Source: a virus (lineage: Duplodnaviria; Caudoviricetes). From it: a stretch of DNA of 36,988 nucleotides. A model generated the notes under the pieces. It searched no databases. It saw only the letters and a list, made by a program, of their open reading frames with translations, and had not been told where the DNA came from. The stretch spans positions 1-36,988 of the IMG/VR virus record IMGVR_UViG_3300037313_000101; one strand, written 5' to 3'. Both the position numbers and the translations under genes were made by a program. Below are positions 4,398 to 36,988 of the stretch, one piece after another. Position 1 is the first letter of the stretch; the number at the start of each line of letters is the position of its first letter.

Positions 4398-5102
4398 ATG
4401 GATTTTAAAGAACGACTGAATAAAATCACCCTTCGGAATATGAAGGTCAAGCACGAAAAGAACAAGTCTTGGCCTATGGAAAAGAAGATTGAAGTGGTAT
4501 CTCAATGGCTTGTTATTGGGAACATGAAGCAGGTTGCTGCTATCACCGGAGTCTCTTACGACCTCATTCGGCAATGGAAAACACAACCTTGGTGGAAAGA
4601 ACTAGAACTTGAAATCCGCCAAACTCAGAACATTGAAATGGACACAAAGTTGTCCAAAATCGTTGATAAGTCCCTAGATGCTGTCCTTGATCGGGTGGAG
4701 AACGGGGACTTTATTTACGACCAAAAATCCGGTGAAATTAGGCGTAAACCTGCTGCTCTACGTGATATTCATCGTGTCGCTGTAGACACTGTAGAGAAGC
4801 GAGAACTCCTTCGTGGTAATGCCACTGAACGAAAAGAAGTAACCCAAATCTCCATTGAGGAGCAATTGAAATTACTGGCCGCTGAGTTTGCCAAATGGCA
4901 GAGTAAGCCTAAAGATGTTATTGAACTAGTGGAGGTCGAAGATGTGGAATATCGTGAAAACGATAATCCTACTGATTCACCTCGGAATGAAAGCGAGGTG
5001 AATCGTGCCGTATATGCGGAACGGGAAGAGGGACTACAAGAAGGAGAATCAGAAGTACAACTCTCGCCCAGAAGTGGTGAAGAAGAGGGAGGAGCGGAAT
5101 AA
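4398..5102 (+). CDS. putative terminase small subunit (HTH)
   Basis: HTH-like NMKQVAAITGVSYDLIRQWKTQPWW; upstream of terminase large subunit; start uncertain. Confidence 0.65.
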   Translation: MDFKERLNKITLRNMKVKHEKNKSWPMEKKIEVVSQWLVIGNMKQVAAITGVSYDLIRQWKTQPWWKELELEIRQTQNIEMDTKLSKIVDKSLDAVLDRVENGDFIYDQKSGEIRRKPAALRDIHRVAVDTVEKRELLRGNATERKEVTQISIEEQLKLLAAEFAKWQSKPKDVIELVEVEDVEYRENDNPTDSPRNESEVNRAVYAEREEGLQEGESEVQLSPRSGEEEGGAE

Positions 5103-5316
5103 CGCTCGTCGTCAATTAACTCGTGAAGGGTTAGTGCATAAAGGGGATGGTAAAGATGTTGACCACAAAAAACCTTTATCCACTGGAGGTTCTACTAGCC
5201 GAAGCAATCTACGTGTCGTACCTGCATCAGAGAACCGATCATTCTCCAGAAACAAAGACGGCTCTCTTAAATCCCAATATTCCAAAAAAGAACGAGCCTC
5301 TAGGAAACGTAAATGA
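5005..5316 (+). CDS. HNH endonuclease
   Basis: DVDHKKPLSTGG...NLRVV...NRS motif; GAGGTG RBS, GTG start. Confidence 0.85.
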   Translation: MPYMRNGKRDYKKENQKYNSRPEVVKKREERNNARRQLTREGLVHKGDGKDVDHKKPLSTGGSTSRSNLRVVPASENRSFSRNKDGSLKSQYSKKERASRKRK

Positions 5317-9380: not shown

Positions 9381-9571
9381 CTTTAAGTGAATGGAAGAGT
9401 ATGGCTATTACACAAGAGTATATGGCCGAACTAAAACGTAGGAGTGATGAGCAAACGGAAGCTCTTGTTGGTAGTGCAGGACATAATCCGATTCTCGACT
9501 CTTACCGCAGCGGAGTAATCGCTGCATACAAAGATGCAGTGGATTTCCACTTTGAGGAGGACTCAGCTTGA
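9377..9571 (+). CDS. small head-morphogenesis region protein
   Basis: GTG start overlapping the portal stop; operon packing. Confidence 0.7.
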   Translation: MTLSEWKSMAITQEYMAELKRRSDEQTEALVGSAGHNPILDSYRSGVIAAYKDAVDFHFEEDSA

Positions 9572-9933
9572 TCGAAGTTATTTTACACAGAGTTCTAGTT
9601 GAACGGGATATTCCCGAAGATACAGATGCTGTTATCACACAGAAGGAAATGAAGCGTCTTGGCTTGTTAACTGCTCCGACAGTGGAGAAAGAGTTAGAAA
9701 AGAAAGCCTTGCGTGAAAATGCTTCTATGGATAAAGGCCACGTGGTTTCTATTGGACCCACGGCCTTCAAAGATTATGGGATCGAGTGCCCTATCAAAGT
9801 AGGAGATTATATCTCTTATGCAAAGTTCGGTGGTAAAGACATCACTGATCCTGAAACTGAAAAGACATTTGTTGCGATAAACGATGAAGATGTTATTGCA
9901 ATTCTTAGTAGAAAGGAGCCTTTAGATGGCTGA
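9568..9933 (+). CDS. groES: GroES/Cpn10-like co-chaperonin
   Basis: HRVLVER...GHVVSIG...IKVGDYISYAKFGG...INDEDVIAIL; GAGGAG RBS, TTG start. Confidence 0.85.
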   Translation: MIEVILHRVLVERDIPEDTDAVITQKEMKRLGLLTAPTVEKELEKKALRENASMDKGHVVSIGPTAFKDYGIECPIKVGDYISYAKFGGKDITDPETEKTFVAINDEDVIAILSRKEPLDG

Positions 9934-12759: not shown

Positions 12760-13128
12760 ATGATTGTAGGTTCTGCTAAAGAAGCCCGTAAAACTAAAGA
12801 CGGATGGGCTAAGTATATGCGAGAGTATAGAAAAGCCCGTCCTGATGTTATGCGGAAAATTGACATCAAGAAAAAGTTTGGATTAGAGTACGATGAGTAT
12901 TTGAAACTACTTGAGTCCCAAAATAACATTTGTGCTATTTGTAAACAACCAGAGACTAAGTTAGATTATCGGACTGGTAATGTATTAAATCTTTCTATAG
13001 ATCATTGTCATGCATCTGGAAAGATTAGAGGTCTTTTGTGTATGGACTGCAATAGGGCAATTGGTATGCTTAACGATGATGTATCAATTTTAGAATCTGC
13101 AATTTCCTATTTAAAGAAAGGAAATTGA
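12760..13128 (+). CDS. endonuclease VII-like HNH nuclease
   Basis: QNNICAICK...LSIDHCH..GKIRGLLC..CNRAIG. Confidence 0.9.
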   Translation: MIVGSAKEARKTKDGWAKYMREYRKARPDVMRKIDIKKKFGLEYDEYLKLLESQNNICAICKQPETKLDYRTGNVLNLSIDHCHASGKIRGLLCMDCNRAIGMLNDDVSILESAISYLKKGN

Positions 13129-26588: not shown

Positions 26589-26604
26589 ATTAACAATAGT
26601 TAAT
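26589..26604. promoter_or_regulatory. palindromic motif copy 6
   Basis: ATTAACAATAGTTAAT next to the terminator. Confidence 0.75.
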
Positions 26605-27047
26605 CAGAAATGAAATACCTTTACTCCGAACCCTGTATAAGCGTCATGCTTCATAGCAGCCTTTACTGCCTCTTTAGGAGTTAGACCAGCAGCCATTGCA
26701 CCTAGTGCCACAGGCTGACCACTTCCAATAGCCGCATAAGGTTGATCTACAGCAATCCACCTATCCCAATCATCCCAAGCAAAAATATCTCCTTGCTCTG
26801 TTAATACAAGCCCCTTAAGACCTTTGGTTTTCGGGGGCTTTGTTGTTTCTGGCATACTGAAAAATTCTGCCACAGCAATAATATCACTGGCTGTACCTGC
26901 AAATCCCATTATGAAATCACAGTGGGGATAGGTAAGTGCATTCGCTTTGAATCGATAAACTTTAGTTTTACCTTTCCACTTACTTGTCCCTTCCGTGAAT
27001 TGGAGATCGCAGGCCATTGCCTCCTTATTACAGACTACTGTAGTAAT
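26604..27047 (-). CDS. HslV/proteasome-beta-like Ntn-hydrolase peptidase (probable ATT start)
   Basis: (M)TTVVC...MACD, TKV, GFAG, AIGSG, D.YTG motifs; catalytic Thr lies upstream of the ATG at 27017. Confidence 0.8.
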   Translation of the reverse strand: MTTVVCNKEAMACDLQFTEGTSKWKGKTKVYRFKANALTYPHCDFIMGFAGTASDIIAVAEFFSMPETTKPPKTKGLKGLVLTEQGDIFAWDDWDRWIAVDQPYAAIGSGQPVALGAMAAGLTPKEAVKAAMKHDAYTGFGVKVFHF

Positions 27048-27356
27048 TTAAAGCTCCATTAATTCTTGTATTCTAGCTTTCCTGCGACTACATAGATATG
27101 GAAAGATATGAATAATAATATTACGACACTTCGGTCCAAAAGCATCAAATCTCCATCTAGGTTTATGATGGGGTTTGTTTTTATTGATGTATGGACCTCT
27201 AAGAGTTCCAAATGGGAAAATAGAATGCAATTTTTCCAACACATCCTTATCACACATATCTACCAGCAGATAGGGATGCTTCTCTGAATGAATAGTGAAA
27301 CATCCCTCTCCTTCAATTAATCCAGCCGCCCACGCTAAATCTGTTTCTTTATACAA
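27048..27356 (-). CDS. single-motif LAGLIDADG endonuclease
   Basis: LAWAAGLIEGEGCF motif; PYLCSRRK. Confidence 0.85.
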   Translation of the reverse strand: MYKETDLAWAAGLIEGEGCFTIHSEKHPYLLVDMCDKDVLEKLHSIFPFGTLRGPYINKNKPHHKPRWRFDAFGPKCRNIIIHIFPYLCSRRKARIQELMEL

Positions 27357-29214
27357 TTTCGCAAGCTCCGTTTACACAAGCAAACTCCGAGTAGTTAATG
27401 ACAGAATCGTCTACTTCATATTTGTCGAATTCATCCCAATTAATTTTTGGAAATTCCGAAATTAACTTATTGTATTGCTTTTCGTCAATGTCTTGATAAG
27501 GTGCTTGTTTGTAAACATGATCTGAAAACGGAAGAAAGCTAACGCCGCCAATATCATTGAGATTTTTATATACCCAAGCTCCGACCTCTAACCATTCATT
27601 TTCTTTCACATAAACAGTAATAGATGGATTATGTTCACACCAATATTTCTTAAACTTTAGATAATGTTCTAGTTGAGTAATGGCATTTACATCTTTTCTA
27701 AATACTGCGTTAGTAGGGCTTTTAATCGGAAATGAAAAAACTAGATTAGAAGGATTAGTTACATCAGGTTCGCACGGAACACCATTCTCTTTTAAAAACA
27801 CAGCAAGAGGGTCTTTATGGTCAGACCGAACTGTTCTGATATAGTAGGGATTATGTCGCGGATGGATCCCACTAGCACTGTCTACTAATTGGGAAACAGT
27901 TCCGGACGGCTTTACAGTAGTAATAGAAACGCTGGGAGAAATACCGAGATTTTTAGCAGTAATCTTGTTTGTTTCAATAGCAATTTTCTTCAAATCCTCT
28001 AATAAAGTTTCTGAAGGATTACTAGCTAGTAAAGGACTGTCCATAATCCCTGTTAAACTAACTCCTAGTAATCTTTCCTCTTCACAGTTTTTCTGCCATT
28101 GTTTCCGGATGTATTTGAAATCAGTGAGTGTAGATTGAAAGGTTCCGAGAATAGTCGCAAGTTCAATCTTTCGTTTAAGACTATCAATAGTATCCGATTC
28201 TCGAACGACAACCTCTGACAGATTGCAGAATTCGTATGGTCGGAGAATAATCTCTCCGCATGGATTGGTGCCAAATTCTGCGTCAAACTCTCTGCGACCA
28301 GTAGCCTCTGCCTGCTTTCGTGCAGCAATTCGATTAAATACGCCTCGTTCTCCGCTTTTACTTTCATAAAGAGTCTGCCACTCCTTCATAAAGATACCAA
28401 TGTCAGGACTCTCAGTATACGCCGCAGAGATATTTGCTAAAGCACGTTGCCCTTCGTCAAGCCACCATTGTCCGTTCTTGTAGTTTCGCATCCGTTCATC
28501 AGTAAGATTCGACAAGCAAATGAGCGCCGACCGTCGGACTCCCCCGACAACGACCACTTCAGCGATCTTACAGATAAGATCGGAACATTCAACTGAATTG
28601 AGTTTTCGCCCAGCAGCTTTTGTAAACAGGGCAACAGTAAATGCGAATAACTCTTCGAGGGGTTTTGGACCAGATGCTCGCCCACCAAAAGTCTTGAGTC
28701 TAGCTCCAGAGGCACGGACACGACTAGTATCCCAACTTGGGATTTGCCCTGAATAGAGTAACGAAATAAGTTGACGAAGCGCACTAGCCCAACCTTGTTT
28801 AGAATCTGCAACAACAATGACTGTATCAGTGTCATAAAATTCCTCCGACACATCTGGAAGTTTATTTATGTATTGCCGTTCTACAGAATACCCTACACCT
28901 GTTCCATTCATCAGAATATACATACACTCGTCAAAGGCACGCACATCATCAATAGGCAGATAGGAGCAGTTATAGCCCGCAATGTTATCTCGTTCTAGAG
29001 CAGGCCCAGCAGTCATTAGGGCTCGCATACTAGGCATAATTTCTAAATCATGGACAGCCTTGTAGATGGTGTCATAAGGAAATTGTTCTGGATAGCGTTT
29101 CAACCAAAAATCACAGTACCGTTTTACTGTTTCGTCCCATGTCTCTCGACGACCTTCTTTTTCTAACCATCGAGCATATCGGCTTTTTGCAATAAATTGT
29201 TGATAATCGTTCAA
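27349..29214 (-). CDS. nrdJ: class II (B12-dependent) ribonucleotide reductase
   Basis: PSMRALM, GYNCS, GTNPCGEI, TVKPSGTVS, C-terminal CVNGAC; no small-subunit gene in the window. Confidence 0.9.
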   Translation of the reverse strand: MNDYQQFIAKSRYARWLEKEGRRETWDETVKRYCDFWLKRYPEQFPYDTIYKAVHDLEIMPSMRALMTAGPALERDNIAGYNCSYLPIDDVRAFDECMYILMNGTGVGYSVERQYINKLPDVSEEFYDTDTVIVVADSKQGWASALRQLISLLYSGQIPSWDTSRVRASGARLKTFGGRASGPKPLEELFAFTVALFTKAAGRKLNSVECSDLICKIAEVVVVGGVRRSALICLSNLTDERMRNYKNGQWWLDEGQRALANISAAYTESPDIGIFMKEWQTLYESKSGERGVFNRIAARKQAEATGRREFDAEFGTNPCGEIILRPYEFCNLSEVVVRESDTIDSLKRKIELATILGTFQSTLTDFKYIRKQWQKNCEEERLLGVSLTGIMDSPLLASNPSETLLEDLKKIAIETNKITAKNLGISPSVSITTVKPSGTVSQLVDSASGIHPRHNPYYIRTVRSDHKDPLAVFLKENGVPCEPDVTNPSNLVFSFPIKSPTNAVFRKDVNAITQLEHYLKFKKYWCEHNPSITVYVKENEWLEVGAWVYKNLNDIGGVSFLPFSDHVYKQAPYQDIDEKQYNKLISEFPKINWDEFDKYEVDDSVINYSEFACVNGACEIV

Positions 29215-29456
29215 ATGCTATTGTCTTTCTGCTTTTTAATACGTTCTAATTTTTCTACTTGTTTATAAAGAATTGGAATAATCTCTTCAACAGAACCGGA
29301 AGCAGATGTATAGAACAAACCATCTTCATCCATCTCTAAAGAATTTTGTTTACGAGCCATGACTTCAGCAAAGGCACGAAGCTCATTCATGGTTTCATTG
29401 AAATCCAATTGAGCGGCCTCTAATCCACGTAGGAACTTCTGGAAGGGAGTTATCAT
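29211..29456 (-). CDS. hypothetical protein
   Basis: ATGA-coupled on both sides. Confidence 0.65.
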   Translation of the reverse strand: MITPFQKFLRGLEAAQLDFNETMNELRAFAEVMARKQNSLEMDEDGLFYTSASGSVEEIIPILYKQVEKLERIKKQKDNSI

Positions 29457-29638
29457 TTTTCTTCATTCAACCTAGCTAAAGCATCTTTAAGATACTCATC
29501 AAACTCTTCTTCTTCCTGCAATCGTTTACGATAACGAATCTTATTATGATTCTTGTTACGTAATTCTTGCAGGCGTTCGTCTGCTTCTTTTTTACTCACA
29601 CGCTTCAAGAAGCGCTTCTCGGTTTTGGTCAATTTCAC
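29453..29638 (-). CDS. small highly charged protein
   Basis: ORF track; packing. Confidence 0.55.
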   Translation of the reverse strand: MKLTKTEKRFLKRVSKKEADERLQELRNKNHNKIRYRKRLQEEEEFDEYLKDALARLNEEK

Positions 29639-29751
29639 TTTCCAATACTTCTACTAATTCCCACATAGTAAATCCGATAATATCCAGAAATTCTGTTACA
29701 TCCAGTTTACTAGCAATTAGTTCTTTTAATTCAACTGTCGTTGGTTTCATA
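29592..29751 (-). CDS. small acidic protein (MKPTTVELKELIA...)
   Basis: GGAG upstream of the internal ATG; start coordinate approximate. Confidence 0.55.
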
Positions 29752-30087
29752 TGCAAGGTACTCCACAGGGAGTCCAAGCAATGCCGCAAACTCAATCTCC
29801 CTTTTAATTCCATAACTCTTATCCCATCCCGGCATACAGTACACGTAGAGTTTGGAACATTTTTCTAAAATAGCGAAATCTTGACGTAGCCACCAGTCCC
29901 CATTTTTGATTTCTGTCATCCCATGAACTTCAATCGGGTGGGAGTGAGAGATCGGGCAGAAAATTAATTCTCCCTTTTCCATAAGCTCTGCTGCCTTCTT
30001 GCACACTTCATGAAAACGACGTGTGCGTTGCCGTGCAGAAGGAGCAGAATACGGACTGGCTAAATAAGCTAAACCATTAGTAGACAT
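29731..30087 (-). CDS. DUF1937 / nucleoside 2-deoxyribosyltransferase-like protein
   Basis: YLASPYS, FCPISHSH, GWDKSYGIKREIEFA. Confidence 0.75.
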   Translation of the reverse strand: MSTNGLAYLASPYSAPSARQRTRRFHEVCKKAAELMEKGELIFCPISHSHPIEVHGMTEIKNGDWWLRQDFAILEKCSKLYVYCMPGWDKSYGIKREIEFAALLGLPVEYLAYETNDS

Positions 30088-30337
30088 CGCCGTTCTCCTG
30101 AATCTTCTTATCTTCGTAAAGTGCAGCTACGCGCCTATAAAACTCTTGTTTGGCACCTTCTAAAGCCCCAAGCACATCGTTAATATATTGGTAACGAAGA
30201 CCATGGACCGTTATATACTGTGTCAGCAATACTGTAATACAGTAATTAAGTTCTCCTGCATTTTGTGGAGGGTCTTGGTCATTCATTCCTCCAAGTGGAT
30301 TGACGTAAATTCGTCTTGTAGCGTCAATGTACGGCAT
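30077..30337 (-). CDS. phage hypothetical protein (GELNY motif)
   Basis: MPYI...NAGELNYCIT...KQEFYRR...YEDKKIQENGDVY. Confidence 0.75.
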   Translation of the reverse strand: MPYIDATRRIYVNPLGGMNDQDPPQNAGELNYCITVLLTQYITVHGLRYQYINDVLGALEGAKQEFYRRVAALYEDKKIQENGDVY

Positions 30338-30479
30338 TAAGCATTACCTTTATCATAAATAGATTGGCGAGAGCATAACAACTCCAAACACCAAGCCAAT
30401 TCCAGTCTTGTTTCCATCCTTGTTCAATCCCTGTCCACAGATACGCTAGGCTTACTAGCAGTAGTAGTGTCTTGCTCAC
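30324..30479 (-). CDS. 51-aa two-helix membrane protein (not in ORF track)
   Basis: GTG start with GGAG; MSKTLLLLVSLAYLWTGIEQGWKQDWNWLGVWSCYALANLFMIKVMLNAVH; bridges an otherwise empty gap. Confidence 0.55.
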   Translation of the reverse strand: MSKTLLLLVSLAYLWTGIEQGWKQDWNWLGVWSCYALANLFMIKVMLNAVH

Positions 30480-30852
30480 GTAAATATAACTCCAAACTTG
30501 CTAAAGCATTCCATGCGATTTGAGCACGGTGCAGAAAACCATCAGGATCATAAGGACCGTCAATGGAAAGATTGACCACATGGCGGGCCATAGCATCTGA
30601 ATAGCGGTTAACACCATCGGGAACCGATTCCCAACCCTTCCAAGAATACTTCTTAGCTCCAGCGGCTGAAACGTCTGCCACGGCCTTACAAGCTCGTGGA
30701 AAATAGTCCAGCAATCCTTGAAAAACAGGAGACTTTCCTTCATCCAATTTAGAACCCGGTTCTTTTGGATTCTTACCATTAGGATCTTTCTCAGTTAAAT
30801 ACTTTTCAAAGTCTTCATTAGACATATGTGGAAAATCAAAGATGTTAATCAT
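30424..30852 (-). CDS. dATP/dGTP diphosphohydrolase-like (DUF5664)
   Basis: GSKLDEGK...GAKKYS..GW...RYSDAMARH...H.AQIAWNAL. Confidence 0.8.
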   Translation of the reverse strand: MINIFDFPHMSNEDFEKYLTEKDPNGKNPKEPGSKLDEGKSPVFQGLLDYFPRACKAVADVSAAGAKKYSWKGWESVPDGVNRYSDAMARHVVNLSIDGPYDPDGFLHRAQIAWNALASLELYLREQDTTTASKPSVSVDRD

Positions 30853-31595
30853 ACTCGTTCTGTAGTAAGTTCCAAAGTTGTCTTAATAGCTTTTCTAGCC
30901 CGGCTCCAAGCGCCACATCCCTTACACTGATAGCGTTGATACTTACCAGTAGAAGTGAAACTAAAGCCACGCTTATGAAGATCGGTACTAGCACAATGAG
31001 GGCATACAGCAGATTCTGTTTCTGAATAAAGTCCCATATTGGGATGCCCTTTGATCCAAGGCAGGAATTGGTAGTACACTTCTTCAAGCAAGATAACATC
31101 GTTCTTGTTATACTCCTCCATGACCTTCCATGCCTCTGGATCGTTATTCATACACTTGATCCAAAGCTCGAAGCCTTCATGTTTACTTTTCTTACCAACT
31201 CCTAATGCTTGCGCAACGTAGTCCAACTTGTTAGAAACAAACCGAAACTTATTACGTGCTGTTTTCAGCAAGTCGATTTGCTTGTAAGAAGATGGGGGTT
31301 TCATCCCATTAAGCAGGAACTCTTTATTCAACGTCGGAATATCAAATGCAGAACCATTATAGTGGATCACTGCATCAGCTTCTTCCAGAAGTTTGTGAAT
31401 GCCTTTAAGCATTTTTTTAACTTTAGAGTTAAAGATGCTATCAAAGAAAATCTCTTCGTCACCCAACCATTTAGCTGAGTAACATAACACCTGTCCAGAA
31501 TCAATTAATCTGCTGAGAGGAATATTTTCCTTCCATAAACTCCAGACATATGCTGTGTTGGGCGACGTTTCAACGTCGAGTAACAATAACTTCAT
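30849..31595 (-). CDS. RNase H-fold 3'-5' exonuclease with C-terminal Zn ribbon
   Basis: LLDVETSP, HYNGSAFD, YNKNDV; CPHC...QRYQCKGCG. Confidence 0.85.
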   Translation of the reverse strand: MKLLLLDVETSPNTAYVWSLWKENIPLSRLIDSGQVLCYSAKWLGDEEIFFDSIFNSKVKKMLKGIHKLLEEADAVIHYNGSAFDIPTLNKEFLLNGMKPPSSYKQIDLLKTARNKFRFVSNKLDYVAQALGVGKKSKHEGFELWIKCMNNDPEAWKVMEEYNKNDVILLEEVYYQFLPWIKGHPNMGLYSETESAVCPHCASTDLHKRGFSFTSTGKYQRYQCKGCGAWSRARKAIKTTLELTTERV

Positions 31596-31789
31596 TGAAC
31601 TGTATCTGTAGAAGGAGCATCGAATGTGTCATCATCTTCTTCCTCTTCTTCAGGAAGGAAATCCATTGCTCCGTTTGCCAATAGAAAATTAATTCCTACT
31701 TGTAGGACGAACTCAACTTGGTCTTTATTGAGAGTTCCCTCAAAGGCAATACTCCCGTCTTCATGTAATGTCTTAATTGTAATTTCTAT
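31592..31789 (-). CDS. 65-aa acidic-tail protein with probable ATA start (not in ORF track)
   Basis: GGAG 7 nt before ATA; EITIKTLHEDGSIAFEG...EEEEEDDD; exactly fills the gap, ATGA-coupled to the next gene. Confidence 0.6.
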   Translation of the reverse strand: MEITIKTLHEDGSIAFEGTLNKDQVEFVLQVGINFLLANGAMDFLPEEEEEDDDTFDAPSTDTVQ

Positions 31790-31791
31790 GA

Positions 31792-32136
31792 TTATTCTCC
31801 GTTCAGTCGCCGAAGCAACTGAAAAAAATGTTCTGCACTAACTACTGCTAATGGAATATCTCTATCCATCTTCACGATCACCAAAGGCTCATGCTCCCCA
31901 TGCTCTTGCGCTTGATCGTAATATGTATGAATTTGACTTCTGGCTTTTGATTTAACTTCGATACAATAAGGTACATAATATCTAGCTGCTGGGCTTAATT
32001 GTACATCTTCACCATTCTGGCCCATAGCAGTGCTTCTTACATCATCCTCTTGCAGTTTTGGAAACATACTAAGAATGTAATCTCGTACCCATTGTTGCGC
32101 TCTGCGGCCTTTGGCGCGCGCGCTTGCTGGTTTCAT
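31792..32136 (-). CDS. PD-(D/E)XK nuclease, Holliday-junction resolvase-like
   Basis: SARAKGR, GEDVQLSP, IEVK; GAGGGG RBS. Confidence 0.8.
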   Translation of the reverse strand: MKPASARAKGRRAQQWVRDYILSMFPKLQEDDVRSTAMGQNGEDVQLSPAARYYVPYCIEVKSKARSQIHTYYDQAQEHGEHEPLVIVKMDRDIPLAVVSAEHFFQLLRRLNGE

Positions 32137-32669
32137 TCTCCCCTCCAAATTTGACAGACACGACTAAAAGAAATATTGAACTCTTTAGCCACTTGAAAAG
32201 ATGTTTGAAATCCTTTTCGTGTTTTTATTTCTTCCTTGTCTTCCAAAGATAATTTACCCATAGGACGAACTTCTGTCGGATGTATGTAACGTCCTTTGAT
32301 AATCATATCTTGAACATTATCATTCCATGTACCCAAAAATAAATGCTCTGGATTTACACACCAAGGATTGTCACATGTATGACATATAATTTTGTCTTCT
32401 GGAATAGCTCCGTGATGTAAAAAGTAAGAGACTTGATGTGCCCTAGTCAATCCAAGTTGTTTACAATGCTTACTACCAACTACTTGTGGATAACCGTCCT
32501 TATCACCTGCTGTAGCAAATTTCCAACAGCCGTTCGTTTGCTCTACTCTTTGCCAGAAATATTCATCTAAAGATTTGGCGTGGCGATATTTATTAAGTGG
32601 TCGTAAATTTTTACCTGTGTAATGTTTCTCAGGTTTAGCTGTTCGCCACTTGGCAGACTGTGGGGTCAT
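32133..32669 (-). CDS. HNH homing endonuclease with C-terminal HTH
   Basis: RAHQVSY...ICHTCDNPWCVNPEHLFLGT..DNVQDM. Confidence 0.9.
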   Translation of the reverse strand: MTPQSAKWRTAKPEKHYTGKNLRPLNKYRHAKSLDEYFWQRVEQTNGCWKFATAGDKDGYPQVVGSKHCKQLGLTRAHQVSYFLHHGAIPEDKIICHTCDNPWCVNPEHLFLGTWNDNVQDMIIKGRYIHPTEVRPMGKLSLEDKEEIKTRKGFQTSFQVAKEFNISFSRVCQIWRGE

Positions 32670-32842
32670 TCAATAACCCGTTGGCTAACCGCTCCGCCCA
32701 TTTCACGTTCTCGCTTAGCGGTTCTGATTTCATCTAAAGAATGGCTTCGATAAACACTAACCCATTCTCCATCGCTATTCTTCTTCTCTAAGATATACTT
32801 AACAGAAAAATCTTCGTATGTTCGTTCTACAATCCTATACAA
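32666..32842 (-). CDS. 58-aa hypothetical protein (not in ORF track)
   Basis: GGAG + TTG; MYRIVERTYEDFSVKY...; ATGA-coupled to the HNH gene. Confidence 0.6.
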   Translation of the reverse strand: MYRIVERTYEDFSVKYILEKKNSDGEWVSVYRSHSLDEIRTAKREREMGGAVSQRVIE

Positions 32843-32844
32843 TA

Positions 32845-33598
32845 TTAATCTCCAAATTTAGGCGGCTGCCAAATATCGTTTTCCTTCCGCCAAATCCACA
32901 AAACTTTTGCATTCATTATGAACTCTTCGTCTGAAGAGAAGCAAGCTCTCGTAGCCTCAAAGAGTTCTCGTTCATTAGTTGCATCCAGTAAGATTCGTCC
33001 TGCTTTAACTTTTCCAATTCCTGCTGCACCTTTAACATTGTCAGCCGTATCTCCAACAAGGATTTGTGTATAGAAGTGTGTAAGTCCAGCAAACTCTTCC
33101 ACTCGTAATATTTCACTGGGTCGAACCCATCGAGTTCCATTGTTTATTCCACTAATTTCAAATGAGTAATGATTGCCGGGGATCATCCGTAAATCTTTGT
33201 CGATTGAGCAGATGATTGTTTCATCAGGAGGCCATTCCACTCCAATAGGGAGTGGTCCTTTTCTGAGTTTTTCAGCTTGGCATTGCGCTATTCCTAGAAG
33301 ATCGTCGGCTTCACAGCAGTCAGCTACTTGTGCGTTATACTTCTCGACTAAGTAGTTCTTTAGGTCTTTTAAGTGTCGCGGTTTTGGGGCCGTTCTATTG
33401 GCCTTGTATTCCGGATAAATGTCGTAGCGAAAGTTCTTTTCGCCAGAGAGAAATATTGAAAACTCGTCAGCACCTGTTTCGGCTAACGTGTTGTCAATCA
33501 TTTCCTCCATTCGCCATATCGCTCTGCCTAAATCGTCGTTTTCAGCAGATGCGGCTGATCGAAATGCAAAAAATGTCACCATCTAAAAGAGCTTTCAG
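32845..33598 (-). CDS. 5'-3' exonuclease (T7 gp6/FEN family), frameshifted near N-terminus
   Basis: NFR..IYPEYKANR, EADD, IDKDL, GDTADNVKG..GIG motifs; N-terminal KALLDGDIF is in another frame from a CTG start. Confidence 0.85.
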
Positions 33599-33612
33599 AT
33601 GGACCTCCTTCC

Positions 33613-33628
33613 ATTAACTATTGTTAAT
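33613..33628. promoter_or_regulatory. palindromic motif copy 7 (opposite orientation)
   Basis: ATTAACTATTGTTAAT between the tRNA CCA end and the exonuclease RBS. Confidence 0.75.
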
Positions 33629-33630
33629 AC

Positions 33631-33706
33631 TGGAGCGGGTAGTCAGTAACGATCTGATCTATTACAGTTTGGAAGACTGCCGTGTATCCATAAACACTTT
33701 ACCCGC
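33631..33706 (-). tRNA. tRNA-Gly(TCC), atypical T arm
   Basis: GCGGGTA/TACCCGC acceptor, U73, encoded CCA, loop CT-TCC-AA. Confidence 0.85.
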
Positions 33707-33707
33707 A

Positions 33708-33781
33708 TGGTGCCGAATGAGAGAATCGAACTCCCGTAAACGGATTACAAAACCGTCGTAATACCACTATACTAATCCGGC
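33708..33781 (-). tRNA. tRNA-Thr(TGT)
   Basis: GCCGGAT/ATTCGGC acceptor, GTTCGATTC T loop, loop TT-TGT-AA, encoded CCA. Confidence 0.9.
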
Positions 33782-33854
33782 TGGTCGGGATGCTTGGTGT
33801 CGAAACCAAGATTGTGCAGCCTACGGCTACCTGACTTCGTTAGTCGACATCCCT
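33782..33854 (-). ncRNA. tRNA-like RNA (non-canonical cloverleaf, CCA end)
   Basis: GGGATG/CATCCC acceptor, CTTGG-TTTCGACA-CCAAG T arm, ACCA end abutting tRNA-Thr; D and anticodon arms aberrant. Confidence 0.65.
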
Positions 33855-33860
33855 TATTCT

Positions 33861-34016
33861 TTATTTAGCGATAATAGAGAAGCCAAATTTAGAATAATCG
33901 TCCGAGTAAGAGCCGGTCAACTTAGTAACCAGTCGGCGGACATACTTCCTAGCTTCTTCATAAGAAGCAAACTTCTTACTGTTGTAACGCTTGTTAAGCA
34001 AACGGATAATATACAC
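33861..34016 (-). CDS. 51-aa basic protein (not in ORF track)
   Basis: AAGGA + GTG; MYIIRLLNKRYNSKKFASYEEARKYVRR... Confidence 0.6.
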   Translation of the reverse strand: MYIIRLLNKRYNSKKFASYEEARKYVRRLVTKLTGSYSDDYSKFGFSIIAK

Positions 34017-34032
34017 TTTATTTCCTTTTTCT

Positions 34033-34233
34033 TTATTCAACTAAATTACGAATCTTTGCAGCAATGTTAGTGGCTCTAGCAGATTCTTTATGGTGAAACT
34101 CAGAGGCTTCTTGGGCTTTCTGAACAATCTGCTCATAATCAAAAGCTGATTGTGTATGTTGAACTGCTTTGTCTTCTAATTGCTTTGCAAGTTTAACGAA
34201 CTTGCTGATTAATGAATCAACTGTTGAAAACAT
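34033..34233 (-). CDS. small coiled-coil protein
   Basis: ORF track; packing. Confidence 0.65.
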   Translation of the reverse strand: MFSTVDSLISKFVKLAKQLEDKAVQHTQSAFDYEQIVQKAQEASEFHHKESARATNIAAKIRNLVE

Positions 34234-34732
34234 CTAAACCACCCTTTTCGTCGTTATATTCTGTTGCAAACACCCAATCAGTATACTTCTGAGCTAACTC
34301 AATCACGGCATTGGGGTCCAAGGCAGCCTTTGCGCCCGGAGAGAGGGTTTCCACAGCACTCGACAGGCTGCTCTGTTTCACAATCAGCACTTGCCGTGCT
34401 GCCCTCTCCTCCTTCGTTTCGTAATTGCTGCCACTCACACGAGTCGTACCGGAAACACCCGGGCTGGCTACGTTTGTAGTGTTGTTTGCACCAACAGGTG
34501 CTACCGATTTCCATTCGTCGTATCCTGCATCATTTTTACCAGTAGTAACTTCTACTGTTTGTCCAACATATTCTTGAACTCGTTTAAAAACTTCCGGGTT
34601 ACTGAAAGAACGAATTGTCCACTTCTTTTCTTCACCACGAAGATCATAAATAACTACAGCGTTACTATAACCTTTACCCCGGCCACGACCGGGAACATTC
34701 TCAATACTAACCGATTTAATTAATACCAGCAT
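34217..34732 (-). CDS. putative single-stranded DNA-binding protein
   Basis: Beta-rich N-terminal half, acidic/aromatic tail, own strong promoter, next to the polymerase. Confidence 0.5.
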   Translation of the reverse strand: MLVLIKSVSIENVPGRGRGKGYSNAVVIYDLRGEEKKWTIRSFSNPEVFKRVQEYVGQTVEVTTGKNDAGYDEWKSVAPVGANNTTNVASPGVSGTTRVSGSNYETKEERAARQVLIVKQSSLSSAVETLSPGAKAALDPNAVIELAQKYTDWVFATEYNDEKGGLDVFNS

Positions 34733-34769
34733 CAATTTCCTTTATTAAAAATAAATACCTTATATAAAT

Positions 34770-34798
34770 ATTGTAACATTAATTGAACTTTAAGTCAA
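34770..34798 (-). promoter_or_regulatory. sigma70 promoter driving the SSB-like/tRNA operon
   Basis: Minus strand TTGACT-17 bp-TACAAT with extended -10 TG. Confidence 0.8.
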
Positions 34799-34827
34799 GT
34801 TTCGTTTCTACGAAACCCAGACGAGCT

Positions 34828-35538
34828 TCACAAGCGAAGCTCAACCATTTCCTTCTTGTTGAGTCCGTACTGGACCTCGGCAGTTAAGGGTAATGAAAAA
34901 TCATAATCAAAGACTTGTTTACATAGTTTAGGTACATCTTCAACTGCCTGATTCAAAATCCTACCAACTGCTTCTACTTCATTCTCTGGACAATCCGCAA
35001 CAATACTATCGTGAATCGTCGAGATCAAGATAGCAGTAAGAGCAGATTCCCTCAGCAACTTCCTCGCTTGTAAGCGGGCTAACATGACAAGATCGGCACC
35101 AAATCCCTGAACAGGATAGTTCTTGATGATTGTTTCCGGCCACGGTTTCCTCTTGCTGTAGTCCGGAGTGATCGGAAATATCCGTCCGCTGGGAATCTCC
35201 AGATACCGATTCTCGATTGCGAACTGAATTAGGTGTTTGTGCCATTCAGCAATTCCTTTATACTTGGTGTAGTATTTATCAATTACATCTTGCCAATAAT
35301 TCTGACTGCTTGAGATAGGAATGAATAAGGGATCAACAGTGAATCCGTAGGCTGATGTTCCGTATAACAATCGAAACTTAAAGAATTTCGCATCCCTACG
35401 CTCGTTAAAACCAAGTAACTTCCTGTTCTCTTCGTGAAAGTTAACCTTGTCTCGAACTTCTTGACAAAGAACTGGATCGCCACTTAGCTCCGCTGCTACA
35501 ACTACCTCTAGACCTGATACGTCACAATTAACTAACAT
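34828..35538 (-). CDS. polA: family A DNA polymerase, C-terminal palm/fingers part
   Basis: Motif A DVSGLE, motif B RRDAKFFKFRLLYG, NYPVQG, motif C IHDS. Confidence 0.9.
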   Translation of the reverse strand: MLVNCDVSGLEVVVAAELSGDPVLCQEVRDKVNFHEENRKLLGFNERRDAKFFKFRLLYGTSAYGFTVDPLFIPISSSQNYWQDVIDKYYTKYKGIAEWHKHLIQFAIENRYLEIPSGRIFPITPDYSKRKPWPETIIKNYPVQGFGADLVMLARLQARKLLRESALTAILISTIHDSIVADCPENEVEAVGRILNQAVEDVPKLCKQVFDYDFSLPLTAEVQYGLNKKEMVELRL

Positions 35539-35686
35539 TCATTCTCAATACCATAAACCAAGTGTTAGTTGCTGAGTTAACGGTAGCTGGTTGAAAAGGC
35601 TCCCATCCGTAATAAATGGCATTATCCACTTCTCTTTTAAAGTCAAGAAAGAGAAAACCGACTATAGTTTTGTATTTATATTTCAA
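35528..35686 (-). CDS. 52-aa protein between the polymerase halves (DUF1737-like; not in ORF track)
   Basis: TTG overlaps the upstream TGA; MKYKYKTIVGFLFLDFKREVDNAIYYGWEPFQPATVNSATNTWFMVLRMNVS. Confidence 0.55.
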   Translation of the reverse strand: MKYKYKTIVGFLFLDFKREVDNAIYYGWEPFQPATVNSATNTWFMVLRMNVS

Positions 35687-36861
35687 AATCTGCTCACCAA
35701 TAATTCATCTACATCACCACTGAAATTCTGCATGTTCGGATTGCTACTGCTAAGGCGACCAGTAGCAGCAACAACTTGGTTGTATTGCCCATGAAGATAC
35801 TCACCCCATTCCATTTTCTCTAGGAGTTCGGGCATCTTTCCGTAGTACGTATCCAGTAACTTCGCTTGTTCTGCACGTGCAAGTAGTAACTCCACGATAC
35901 GCTTATGGGTTTTGGTCGGGTTTTTGAGTTGTTTAAGTACATCTTCGCCTGTCGCATAGATCGGATATTCCTTTTCCTCAACTTTGCTTTTGAGCTTAGT
36001 CTCTGAACCTTTAATCGGATTGAACAATGTCGGGCACCTAACAATGTTCGTGACATATCTATTCCTCTCATACTCTTGTCCTTTACGTGGTCCTGACTTA
36101 TAGATCAGTTTATCAACGTGGGATACACGAGTAAGCTCAAATGCCCCGCCATAAAGTAGACAACTAAGCTGATGCCCGCTATCAAGGTTGCAATCGTCAG
36201 GAGCATTGAGCAGCTCACGAAGCTCTTTTGTAAGAACTTGGAGGGACTCTTCTGTCTCCACAGCTTTTTGTTTACATTTTTCAACATCAAACTTAATTCC
36301 ATTCCATTCCATTTCTTCCAGAACTAACAAATCTAAACCCATCACCATACACAGTCGTTTCTGACGGTCGGTCATAGCTTTTTGCTGAGCCAAATAAAGT
36401 TTATAGGTTAGCTCAACATCTAACTTATTGTAGGCCGTTAGTTCTTCGGCAGGAATCTCGTCTGTTTGAATTCCTAGATTCCAGTATTCCTCAATACGCT
36501 CACTCTTTTTCCACTCTGGATTAAATCTTGCTAGCGCCTCGTTAAGCGATGGATAAGAACCTTGTTGTCCTCGCAGGATAAACTCGGCAATCTGACAATC
36601 CCACACTCGAACCCTATCGTTCCATTTGATCCCATATCTGCGCGCCCAATGAAGATCGTATTTAGCATTGTAGGCAACAATCAGATCAGCATTCTCTAGT
36701 GCATACCGTAATGGTCTAAGGAATTCAATGTCTGTATAGTAGGCACAATCTATTTCCTTGTTGTCATCCACCTTAACTGAATAGCATACCATCTTGTTAC
36801 TCGCCGTAAACGGGTTGCCCTTGTTAATGGTGGTGGCTTCTACGTCGAAAGTTATAACGAT
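35683..36861 (-). CDS. polA: family A DNA polymerase, N-terminal 3'-5' exonuclease/thumb part (probable ATC/ATT start)
   Basis: ExoI TFDVE upstream of the first ATG, ExoII YNAKYD, ExoIII YNKLD, TGRLSSSNPNMQN. Confidence 0.88.
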   Translation of the reverse strand: MVITFDVEATTINKGNPFTASNKMVCYSVKVDDNKEIDCAYYTDIEFLRPLRYALENADLIVAYNAKYDLHWARRYGIKWNDRVRVWDCQIAEFILRGQQGSYPSLNEALARFNPEWKKSERIEEYWNLGIQTDEIPAEELTAYNKLDVELTYKLYLAQQKAMTDRQKRLCMVMGLDLLVLEEMEWNGIKFDVEKCKQKAVETEESLQVLTKELRELLNAPDDCNLDSGHQLSCLLYGGAFELTRVSHVDKLIYKSGPRKGQEYERNRYVTNIVRCPTLFNPIKGSETKLKSKVEEKEYPIYATGEDVLKQLKNPTKTHKRIVELLLARAEQAKLLDTYYGKMPELLEKMEWGEYLHGQYNQVVAATGRLSSSNPNMQNFSGDVDELLVSRF

Positions 36862-36988
36862 AATTCTTCCTCCGCCCTTTGTCTAGCTTTTAACGCCTCT
36901 TCATACGATGGGCCGGTATATAGTTGTATGAATTTTCGATTGATATTAATAAATGCTTGATATGTTTTAGTAACTAGGCCTTTAGCAT
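36852..36988 (-). CDS. C-terminus of an AP2-domain-like protein (probably HNH-AP2 endonuclease), truncated by window
   Basis: ...TYQAFININRKFIQLYTGPSYEEALKARQRAEEELSL*. Confidence 0.55.
   Translation of the reverse strand, partial: AKGLVTKTYQAFININRKFIQLYTGPSYEEALKARQRAEEELSL

What the first reader, a model, noticed from the sequence alone, without database searches (positions are those of the whole stretch)
26604..36873. Several replication-operon genes appear to start at non-canonical codons (ATC/ATT, CTG, ATA, ATT)
Seen: four genes have a Shine-Dalgarno sequence 5-7 nt before a near-cognate codon, with no in-frame ATG/GTG/TTG at that position. They are DNA polymerase (GGAGG-7-ATC 36861), 5'-3' exonuclease (AGGAGG-5-CTG 33598), a 65-aa gene (GGAG-7-ATA 31789) and the Ntn peptidase (GGAG-6-ATT 27047). 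Several neighbours use TTG or GTG, while most structural genes use ATG. Established: in three of the four, the extra N-terminal residues contain conserved catalytic motifs (ExoI DxE, FEN DGD, Ntn Thr1), and IF3 normally suppresses AUU/AUA/AUC/CUG initiation. Inference: the phage may tune or gate these enzymes through start-codon fidelity, possibly with a phage factor that relaxes IF3 proofreading.
Basis: partly seen in the sequence, partly recalled or inferred. Interest (0 to 1): 0.8.

Follow-up and report, generated by a model that had tools for sequence, protein, structure and literature searches.

The report
Leaky translation throttles phage DNA enzymes
Four genes of this soil phage (DNA polymerase, exonuclease, a peptidase and a small protein) have no normal start codon and likely begin at weak look-alike codons behind ribosome-binding sites, and the exonuclease gene also has one extra base that ribosomes would have to slip over, next to the spot where relatives carry a five-base gap that ribosomes likely hop.

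Summary
The four near-cognate codons and their Shine-Dalgarno (SD) sites are present as described. In this Zobellviridae-like family, ATT/ATA/ATC/CTG swap with ATG at the orthologous codon: 28 of 523 starts. They fall mostly in nucleases, polymerase, helicase and the HslV-like peptidase (0 of 70 virion/lysis starts) and have stronger SDs than ATG starts of the same genome (15 of 17 genomes). I found no IF3, kinase or initiator tRNA, so a cis-encoded low-output setting fits better than a phage IF3 factor. The scan reported this habit before in at least eight other genomes.

This is probably not an error. A 10-bp hairpin buries the CUG, and two close relatives show the same +1 offset with Phe where 100 of 100 intact ones have Tyr. 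Nine distinct relatives carry the same hairpin with GGU-UA-GGU around a UAG. In 6 of 8 of these checked, an endonuclease gene lies directly upstream: a likely miniature of the T4 MobA/gene 60 bypass. The scan found similar hops in other genes. No translation data exist.

The parts
35683..36861 (-). N-terminal half of the split family A DNA polymerase (3'-5' exonuclease domain plus start of the polymerase domain); likely start ATC 36861 (ATT 36864 and ATA 36855 also in frame)
   Evidence: ATG at the same codon in L081 and L082, ATT with no canonical codon in frame in L189
36869..36873 (-). SD GGAGG of the polymerase, inside the last codons of the upstream endonuclease gene
   Evidence: (duplex -9.5 kcal/mol)
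36852..36988 (-). 3' end of an HNH-type endonuclease gene cut by the contig end; its stop lies 7 nt past the polymerase ATC
   Evidence: (phrog_99, E 8e-5)
33613..33628 (.). copy of the dispersed palindrome ATTAAC-N4-GTTAAT; folds as a hairpin just 5' of the exonuclease SD
33604..33609 (-). SD AGGAGG of the exonuclease (strongest of the starts scored, -12.3 kcal/mol)
33579..33602 (-). 10-bp RNA hairpin that pairs the CUG start region with the Leu-Asp-Gly codons
   Evidence: (region z -3.3, 0 of 200 shuffles)
33542..33598 (-). frame opened by the CTG start: first 10 codons match the exonuclease N-terminus with the DGD motif; ends at TGA after 18 codons unless the frame changes
33568..33573 (-). 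T6 run with the extra base; candidate +1 shift site UUU_U (codon 10 at 33571-33569, next codon UGC)
32845..33567 (-). body of the 5'-3' exonuclease (FEN/T5 D15/T7 gp6 type), open and with the conserved acidic motifs
31592..31795 (-). conserved 65-67-aa gene of unknown family; start ATA 31789 by SD spacing or ATA 31795 (ATAA overlap with the upstream stop) by homology
27048..27356 (-). endonuclease gene (phrog_5046; weak LAGLIDADG_1 match) whose last codons give the GGAG and whose TAA directly precedes the peptidase ATT
26604..27047 (-). HslV/proteasome-beta-like Ntn peptidase gene; ATT is the first codon after a stop and precedes Thr-Thr
33631..33781 (-). tRNA-Thr(UGU) and tRNA-Gly(UCC) directly upstream of the exonuclease, where hop-carrying relatives have an endonuclease gene

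Best explanation
Polymerase, peptidase, 65-aa gene and exonuclease lack ATG/GTG/TTG at the codon where relatives start and likely initiate at ATC, ATT, ATA and CTG with the host's ordinary machinery, which would hold their output low, and full-length exonuclease would in addition need a +1 ribosomal slip at a UUU-U run ten codons in. Shown: the codons, the SDs, the swap with ATG at the orthologous position, the bias towards nucleases and replication enzymes, the frame break, the hairpin, and recurrent frame breaks at this 5' end in relatives. Inferred: initiation itself; low output through IF3 discrimination, partly offset by the strong SD; and the slip, likely helped by re-folding of the start-codon hairpin behind the ribosome. 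In relatives the same 5' end is supplied by an endonuclease cassette (new SD, ATG, hairpin, and GGU-UA-GGU around UAG) that would be read by a +5 hop restoring Asp-Gly-Asp. The gap likely protects the gene from the endonuclease, as the T4 gene 60 gap does. The window's allele is likely a parallel or left-over version without the endonuclease. Odds: near-cognate starts real about 0.9; cis-encoded low setting without a phage factor about 0.65; window's extra T real and recoded about 0.6; hop in relatives about 0.75.
For: Orthologous position: the codon before Thr-Thr in 23 distinct peptidase relatives is ATG 13, TTG 6, ATA 2, ATT 1, CTG 1 and nothing else. Of 33 genes with no canonical codon in frame, 23 have ATH/CTG at the family's modal start position, against 9 of 137 codons further upstream; the other 10 are 9 interrupted genes and one CTG a codon off. 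SD compensation: median -7.2 vs -3.9 kcal/mol in the same genomes, 15 of 17 genomes, Wilcoxon p=3e-4. Gene class: 23 of 270 in nucleases/polymerase/helicase/primase/peptidase vs 2 of 232 others (window excluded, class drawn after seeing the data); 0 of 70 virion/lysis starts. Output 1-2% of AUG in E. coli (bioRxiv 10.1101/063800) and about 10% with strong SDs in S. aureus (PMC13009471). Frame break: it is the only one found in 17.8 kb of the window covered by relatives. The same +1 offset with Phe appears in P0155 and P0234; Tyr stands there in 100 of 100 intact close relatives; the three shifted alleles sit apart on the tree. Hairpin: -10.7 kcal/mol, stronger than all 55 intact alleles (median -4.7) and like the 9 hop alleles (median -12.5, p=2e-6). 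In the 10-row alignment, 2 of 10 pairs change on both sides, 94.6% of cells pair vs 20-62% when slid. Hop alleles: 11 of 20 pattern hits are exonuclease genes with full bodies; all 4 catalytic motifs are kept in 9 of 9; an endonuclease lies directly upstream in 6 of 8 vs 1 of 57 intact alleles. Polymerase second halves show the same design in 3 loci (+6, +2, +4; hairpins -16, -18, -15.6 vs median -4.1 of 31; endonuclease upstream 3 of 3 vs 3 of 39).
Against: No RNA, ribosome or peptide data. The only run holding this DNA may be its source and is kept as contigs, so the T6 run has no independent check. The DNA of P0155 and P0234 was not seen, and a scan of IMG/VR for the +1 pattern found 0 matches. 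P0155 is very close to an intact protein (P0162), which also fits a recent mutation or error. The window has no endonuclease upstream of the exonuclease, no stop after Gly and no matched GGU pair. CUG, hairpin and slip multiplied could leave almost no protein, which also fits a silenced gene. The near-cognate state is labile (7 of 59 exonucleases, 0 of 34 relatives of the 65-aa gene), unlike infC. A strong SD may merely permit drift to a weak codon. PMC5499595 argues that non-AUG codons do not simply limit output and that their use depends on growth medium. The hop pattern was taken from L105, so its sequence identity among hits is built in.
Confidence: 0.6

Rival explanations
1. One reading: the phage makes a factor that relaxes IF3 proofreading and so switches these genes on together during infection.
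For: Near-cognate starts co-occur within genomes more often than chance (13 pairs vs 3.8 expected, p=0.001; 10 vs 2.8, p=0.003 after dropping two close kin). T7-like kinases phosphorylate IF1, IF2 and IF3 (PMC6375957). About a quarter of this genome is missing, and 58 of 77 early ORFs of complete relatives have no Pfam family.
Against: No IF3_C in 6 records; no kinase, ADP-ribosyltransferase or translation-factor family in 77 ORFs; no Met or Ile tRNA. 66 of 90 loci have no such start and 16 have only one. Strong SDs suggest the starts work unaided. The state flips repeatedly on the exonuclease tree.
Confidence: 0.1
2. Tolerated drift: where a gene has a strong SD and little protein is needed, or the host's initiation is permissive, ATG decays to a near-cognate codon without any selection for low output.
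For: Four different codons are used and the state is scattered on the tree; clustering by genome fits a host effect; SD strength would be a precondition rather than a compensation.
Against: TTG is also common in the same genes (11 of 59 exonucleases, 6 of 23 peptidases). The same exonuclease 5' end repeatedly gains other leaky devices. Virion genes with equally strong SDs show none.
Confidence: 0.2
3. The extra T in the exonuclease is an assembly or base-calling error in a homopolymer, and the real gene is continuous from CTG.
For: One contig at depth about 9, library not on record, T6 run; 0 of 59 relatives with DNA have a T5+ run there; 0 IMG/VR matches to the +1 pattern.
Against: An error should leave many intact Phe alleles, yet 100 of 100 intact close relatives have Tyr and all 3 shifted ones have Phe. 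The hairpin marks the broken alleles and not the intact ones. No other frame break was found in 17.8 kb.
Confidence: 0.2
4. The extra T is real but the exonuclease is dead or replaced by the shorter product from ATG 33582, which lacks the first Asp.
For: Three repressive features are stacked; ATG 33582 is in the body frame and is what gene callers pick (P0121).
Against: The body keeps all four motifs checked, and its branch (0.27) is close to those of its neighbours (0.17-0.25). ATG 33582 has no SD (-0.1 kcal/mol) and lies in the hairpin. That T7 gp6 and T5 D15 are essential is recalled, not checked.
Confidence: 0.17
5. The near-cognate starts are by-products of homing endonuclease insertions that replaced the genes' 5' ends.
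For: Two of the window's four starts directly follow endonuclease genes.
Against: Endonuclease upstream in 5 of 25 near-cognate vs 21 of 209 canonical starts (p=0.17); without the window 3 of 23 vs 20 of 207 (p=0.71).
Confidence: 0.06

Closest known systems
E. coli infC and pcnB (AUU); S. aureus infC, ccpN, citZ (AUA) and cvfC1 (AUU)
   Same: One-base variants of AUG behind a good SD; the S. aureus cases give about 10% of AUG output (PMC13009471, passages); only two confirmed cases in E. coli (bioRxiv 10.1101/063800, passages).
   Different: Here four genes in one 10-kb phage operon, about 5% of surveyed starts in the family, four different codons, and labile rather than conserved; no feedback loop or measurement shown.
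T4 gene 60 bypass carried by the MobA homing endonuclease element
   Same: In relatives: an endonuclease inserted at a conserved catalytic site supplies a new N-terminus, a stem-loop that includes the take-off codon, and a stop between matched Gly codons; the endonuclease can be lost while the gap stays (bioRxiv 10.1101/2022.08.31.505936, passages).
   Different: Gap of 5 nt instead of 50; GGU instead of GGA; only 6-9 codons before take-off, so no long nascent-peptide signal; host gene a 5'-3' exonuclease or polymerase half, endonuclease EndoVII-like. The window itself has neither gap nor upstream endonuclease, only hairpin and a one-base offset.
Synthetic stop-hops (+5, +6; Weiss et al. 1987) and the candidate bypass in Streptomyces phage Hau3 terminase
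   Same: Matched codons flanking a slow or stop A-site codon (PMC5009743, passages).
   Different: The 2016 review knows short stop-hops from synthetic constructs and lists few natural bypass cases; these would be natural, recurrent and cassette-borne.
+1 frameshifting at NUU_U sites (RF2 type) and upstream-hairpin stimulation
   Same: UUU_U is a studied though weaker +1 site (PMC5009743); a re-folding hairpin 5' of a shift site stimulated +1 shifting in yeast (PMC3639245, abstract).
   Different: A-site codon is UGC, not a stop; no internal SD at RF2 spacing; not tested in bacteria here.
T4 genes e, soc, 49 and I-TevI with hairpin-sequestered initiation sites
   Same: An RNA helix hides the start of a nuclease gene (PMC3014915, passages).
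   Different: There a late promoter opens the site; here the 3' arm is coding sequence, so no shorter transcript can remove it.
Zobellviridae-related podophages MEP401/MEP402 and Alcaligenes phage vB_Af_QDWS535
   Same: Split family A polymerase, same replication gene order, 38-48% protein identity (PMC10580990, passages).
   Different: QDWS535 has ATG at all eight replication genes looked at; no cultured phage matched the hop cassette.

Membership tests
Near-cognate initiation sites (infC/pcnB/ccpN type) | AUU, AUC, AUA or CUG at SD spacing | tested here: met
Near-cognate initiation sites (infC/pcnB/ccpN type) | No canonical codon in frame that would keep the conserved N-terminus | tested here: met
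   for the exonuclease true only with a frame change
Near-cognate initiation sites (infC/pcnB/ccpN type) | Same position as ATG in orthologues | tested here: met
   the 65-aa gene within two codons
Near-cognate initiation sites (infC/pcnB/ccpN type) | Non-canonical state conserved across relatives, as for infC | tested here: not met
   28 clear of 523 starts; 7 of 59 exonucleases, 3-5 of 23 peptidases
Near-cognate initiation sites (infC/pcnB/ccpN type) | Initiation shown at the codon and repressed by IF3 | not testable with these tools
   no RNA holder listed
HslV/proteasome-beta Ntn peptidases | Ntn fold with the first strand in place | tested here: met
   model pLDDT 95.9 with strand 3-7; best matches BPH and HslV, E about 1e-8, TM 0.71-0.76
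HslV/proteasome-beta Ntn peptidases | Thr at the mature N-terminus, with conserved Asp, Lys and Gly-Ser-Gly | tested here: met
   Thr-Thr follows the ATT; D14, K29, G108, G110 invariant in 40 sequences; profile aligns to an HslV chain from residue 1, weakly; catalytic roles recalled
HslV/proteasome-beta Ntn peptidases | Proteolytic activity and ring assembly | not tested
   no assay, no complex prediction run
T4 gene 60 / MobA bypass element | [quoted passage not shown] | tested here: not met
   not in the window; met in 9 distinct relatives
T4 gene 60 / MobA bypass element | Homing endonuclease gene adjoining the site | tested here: not met
   window has tRNAs there; met in 6 of 8 relatives
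T4 gene 60 / MobA bypass element | Stem-loop at or 5' of the take-off codon | tested here: inconclusive
   present with compensatory pairs in window and hop alleles; role untested
T4 gene 60 / MobA bypass element | 50-nt gap in a topoisomerase gene with a nascent-peptide signal | tested here: not met
   gaps of 1-6 nt, 6-10 codons from the start, in exonuclease or polymerase; works like it, not a member
Programmed +1 ribosomal frameshift | P-site codon can re-pair one base on and the two frames together match the intact protein | tested here: met
   UUU_U; both frames match P0122/P0125 with Tyr to Phe
Programmed +1 ribosomal frameshift | Shift site conserved at DNA level in relatives | tested here: inconclusive
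   same offset in two proteins; DNA not obtained, 0 IMG/VR matches
Programmed +1 ribosomal frameshift | Trans-frame product detected | not testable with these tools
   needs reporter or mass spectrometry
Zobellviridae | Split family A polymerase and replication module like MEP401/ICP2 | tested here: met
Zobellviridae | Placement by whole-proteome phylogeny | not tested
   called Zobellviridae-like only

The most novel reading that the evidence does not exclude
This phage family uses an interchangeable kit of leaky translation at the 5' ends of its DNA enzymes: near-cognate starts, a start-codon hairpin that re-folds behind the ribosome and pushes it forward, and tiny coding gaps (+1, +2, +4, +5, +6) brought in by homing endonucleases that hide their own target this way. 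The window's exonuclease is made only by CUG initiation followed by a hairpin-driven +1 slip, and relatives show natural five-base stop-hops, the smallest counterparts of T4 gene 60.
Probability: 0.45. Interest if true: 0.85.

Novelty: new variant of a known kind. Interest (0 to 1): 0.65.

Why it matters
Near-cognate starts are a known device, but here they affect about 5% of surveyed replication genes of a common phage family and make gene callers cut off catalytic N-termini. About 41 of 120 database relatives of the peptidase, and 13 of 119 of the exonuclease, are called from an internal Met (DNA not seen for these). The exonuclease 5' end matters more. Natural translational bypassing has few known cases, and a hairpin-plus-five-base hop short enough for a simple reporter, recurring with a homing endonuclease, would make it directly testable whether mRNA re-pairing behind the ribosome drives forward movement and whether such gaps arise as shields against endonucleases. 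It also warns that essential phage genes filed as broken may be recoded.

Tried and rejected
Motif count alone: GGAG-N5-8-ATH is at chance level.

Sequencing errors at the start codons: rejected, because the same codons stand at the same positions in unrelated samples.

Propeptide instead of a near-cognate start for the peptidase: impossible in the window, where a stop directly precedes ATT; possible only in L082 and L016, counted as doubtful.

Translational coupling as the general explanation: three of the four window starts abut the upstream stop, but in the family a nearby stop is no more frequent for near-cognate starts (15 of 28) than for ATG (252 of 379) by a crude test.

Altered initiator tRNA: none seen.

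An automatic all-ORF screen was dominated by shadow frames and its output was cut; I dropped it for family-anchored counts.

Trees: L105 was wrongly labelled near-cognate (it is a hop allele) and L195 is doubtful, so its count of 8 changes is too high by up to two. The tree left out 15 intact rows and L195 and is a FastTree without bootstrap.

No RNA holder listed. Peptidase searches in viral contigs with the single protein and with alignment A3 found nothing. None of the 19 genome contigs pattern hits was a relative. No cultured phage matched the hop cassette or the close peptidase P0016.

Literature: ten searches showed no paper on near-cognate starts, frameshifts or hops in this family; the library lacks most subscription papers. 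The SPP1 paper was irrelevant. Supplements were not read; those of the bioRxiv bypass preprint are closed and may list further cassettes.

Full report
Setting. The window is a 76%-complete record of a lytic podophage from a soil metagenome run. Virion genes lie on the + strand and the replication operon on the - strand. The polymerase is split as in MEP401/MEP402, ICP2 and Alcaligenes phage QDWS535, its nearest cultured relatives at 31-41% identity (PMC10580990, passages). I therefore call it Zobellviridae-like without having classified it.

The observation. The four codons and SD spacings are as stated. The first canonical codon in frame lies 23, 36 and 10 codons downstream for polymerase, 65-aa gene and peptidase. 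Starting there would remove the F-D-V-E motif of the polymerase and the Thr-Thr of the peptidase (catalytic roles of these motifs recalled). The SD-plus-ATH motif by itself is at chance level, 50 found against 52 expected, so homology has to carry the case. One statement fails: the exonuclease CTG frame reads KALLDGDIF and then stops at codon 19; the body is one base on, across six T's at 33573-33568.

Are they starts? I fetched relatives by protein and by start-blind DNA patterns. In 23 distinct peptidase genes the codon before Thr-Thr is ATG 13 times, TTG 6, ATA 2, ATT 1 and CTG 1, never anything else. In the window a stop directly precedes the ATT, so no propeptide is possible. The model built from that codon is a confident Ntn fold with the first strand in place, closest to BPH and HslV. 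I then took 107 loci of the family, clustered their ORFs, removed near-copies at 92% identity and classed the starts of 21 gene families. Of 523 starts, 379 are ATG, 67 TTG, 29 GTG, 28 near-cognate with no canonical codon in frame (ATT 14, ATA 8, CTG 4, ATC 2; three are the window's), 10 doubtful and 10 interrupted or cut. Among 33 genes of nine tight families that lack any canonical codon, 23 have ATH/CTG at the modal start position, against 9 of 137 codons further up. For the polymerase, ATG stands at the position of the ATC in the two closest relatives and ATT in L189. For the 65-aa gene all 34 relatives are canonical, and the start could be 31795 or 31789.

What governs them? Near-cognate starts have stronger SDs than ATG starts of the same genome (median -7.2 vs -3.9 kcal/mol; 15 of 17 genomes), and the codon was picked without regard to the SD. 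They concentrate in the Holliday junction resolvase (5 of 17), helicase (4 of 27), peptidase (3 of 23, plus 2 doubtful), exonuclease (7 of 59), phosphoesterase (3 of 40) and polymerase. There are none in the putative SSB (50; name inferred from position, no family hit), lysin (21), ribonucleotide reductases (36) or 70 virion and lysis starts; the enzyme class was drawn after seeing the data. The state flips repeatedly on the exonuclease tree (with one mislabelled and one doubtful row). It is not tied to an upstream stop or an upstream endonuclease. Published outputs are 1-2% of AUG in E. coli (bioRxiv 10.1101/063800, passages) and about 10% behind extended SDs in S. aureus (PMC13009471, passages). 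IF3 discriminates against such codons and against SD-less re-initiation (PMC2268962, passages), although PMC5499595 (passages) finds medium-dependent use and doubts that limiting output is the only purpose. A cis-encoded low setting, possibly responsive to host state, is my best reading. For a phage factor there is one positive sign, co-occurrence within genomes above chance (p=0.001, and 0.003 without two close kin), and one precedent, the T7 kinase (PMC6375957, passage). Against it are no IF3_C in 6 records, no kinase or translation factor among 77 early ORFs (58 without any family), and no Met or Ile tRNA. A permissive host explains the clustering equally well. Earlier notes of this scan describe the same habit in eight other genomes; they are leads, not support.

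The exonuclease 5' end. The extra T is the only frame break in the 17.8 kb of the window that relatives cover, and the single contig holding it may be the window's source, so I first took it for an error. Three results changed that. First, the CUG is buried in a 10-bp stem with the Leu-Asp-Gly codons (region z -3.3, 0 of 200 shuffles), stronger than in all 55 intact alleles scored. Second, among 119 close database relatives (57-73% identity), P0155 and P0234 were called from the same out-of-frame ATG as the window and show Phe where 100 of 100 intact ones have Tyr. The three lie apart on the tree. Their implied DNA is NUU followed by a pyrimidine, a site where the P-site tRNA can re-pair one base on; the DNA itself was not seen, and IMG/VR gave no match. 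Third, four more proteins (P0123, P0135, P0139, P0210) and locus L105 read as if GAY GGT were followed by TAG GT GAC. A pattern scan gave 20 hits, 11 of them exonuclease genes of this family (8 distinct; three pairs from separate assemblies). Each has an SD, an ATG 5-8 codons before the Asp, a stop after Asp-Gly, and a full body of 226-271 residues resuming five bases on at a second GGU. A hop between the matched Gly codons gives exactly Asp-Gly-Asp. All nine distinct alleles keep the four catalytic motifs checked and have the same start-codon hairpin (median -12.5 vs -4.7 kcal/mol), with compensatory changes in 2 of 10 pairs (related sequences inflate the shuffle control). The hop state needs at least five changes on the tree.

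Why such gaps recur. Prompted by an earlier scan note on an endonuclease-linked stop gap, I looked upstream. An EndoVII-like endonuclease ends 23-32 nt before the Asp codon in 6 of 8 hop alleles, against any endonuclease in 1 of 57 intact ones. In L228 and L234 it begins with an exonuclease-like N-terminus, so it sits in the old 5' end and supplies a new one. Three second halves of the polymerase (L182, L183, L197) show the same design, with offsets of +6, +2 and +4 after a CUU codon, strong hairpins and an endonuclease upstream; the +4 case has no stop and the +2 case no exact landing match. This parallels the MobA element of T4, where the endonuclease brings a replacement N-terminus, the gap blocks further nicking, and the endonuclease is often lost while the gap stays (bioRxiv 10.1101/2022.08.31.505936, passages). 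Re-pairing of mRNA leaving the ribosome has been proposed as the forward drive in gene 60 (bioRxiv 10.1101/2024.12.09.627546, title and abstract), and an upstream hairpin stimulated +1 shifting in yeast (PMC3639245, abstract). A 2016 review knows short stop-hops from synthetic constructs and few natural bypasses (PMC5009743, passages). The window is not a member of that element: it has tRNAs upstream, no stop after Gly and no matched codon. It shares the hairpin and a frame break three codons from the same Gly, so I read it as a parallel or residual allele read by a +1 slip (about 0.6), with error (0.2) and a dead gene (0.17) as rivals. T4 also hides nuclease starts in hairpins (PMC3014915, passages).

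Verdict. The finding as given is real and of a known kind, repeatedly seen by this scan, and its IF3-factor idea is unsupported. Following it exposed a recurrent set of tiny, hairpin-linked coding gaps at the exonuclease and polymerase 5' ends of this family, which my ten literature searches did not show in print and which simple reporters can test. Nothing here measures translation. Interest 0.65; new variant of a known kind.

Noticed in passing
window 1070, 2065, 2953 (5-nt spacer), 3152, 3920, 26589, 33613: Palindrome ATTAAC-N4-GTTAAT in six exact copies between genes or at gene ends (chance mean 0.18 even with one mismatch); one precedes the exonuclease SD, one overlaps the peptidase stop. 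Complete relatives have similar sets: ATTACA-N3-TGTAAT (G001 three sites, G002 seven) and ATTAAC-N3-GTTAAT (G003 five). Operator-like.
   Followed up: partly
window 33782-33853 (-): tRNA-like cloverleaf ending in CCA next to tRNA-Thr and tRNA-Gly, with a shortened anticodon loop around GUA; missed by ARAGORN and Rfam.
   Followed up: partly
window 33635-33604 (-): The 3' end of tRNA-Gly can pair with the exonuclease SD (CUCC/GGAG), so tRNA processing might unmask the SD.
   Followed up: no
L228, L232, L234, L236, L240, L242, L244, L246, L105; proteins P0123, P0135, P0139, P0210: Exonuclease genes with GGU-UA-GGU around UAG in the Asp-Gly-Asp motif, start-codon hairpin and mostly an EndoVII-like endonuclease upstream: candidate natural +5 stop-hop cassette.
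   Followed up: yes
L182:2306, L183:2107, L197 (- strand, offset 2207): Second polymerase halves broken by 6, 2 and 4 extra bases after the Leu codon of the motif-A-like D-V-K-x-L-E stretch, each with a strong start hairpin and an upstream endonuclease.
   Followed up: partly
L015, L082, L092, L114: Second polymerase halves interrupted by inserts with group I intron-like sequence (seen; identity recalled, not tested).
   Followed up: no
L185 (+) near 6090: Phosphoesterase gene with a frame break a few codons after its ATG, inside a predicted hairpin; error or another recoding site.
   Followed up: no
window 35538-35683 (-): 145-nt AT-rich spacer with a 52-58-codon ORF between the two polymerase halves; no family match.
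   Followed up: no
window 5005-5316, 12760-13128, 27048-27356, 32133-32669, 36852-36988: Five free-standing endonuclease-like genes; the one after the major capsid gene matches the same EndoVII PHROGs as the hop-cassette endonuclease.
   Followed up: partly
window 9568-9933 (+): GroES-like gene (phrog_3188) among the head genes, with a TTG start behind a very strong SD.
   Followed up: no
L056, L058, L063 against L163, L054; L137: More distant exonucleases also swap ATG without SD for ATC or ATT behind a strong SD, so the habit extends beyond the surveyed loci.
   Followed up: no
L226:15886-16018 (QDWS535): The GenBank phosphoesterase is annotated from an internal ATG and lacks about 44 N-terminal residues, although an ATG start exists.
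   Followed up: yes
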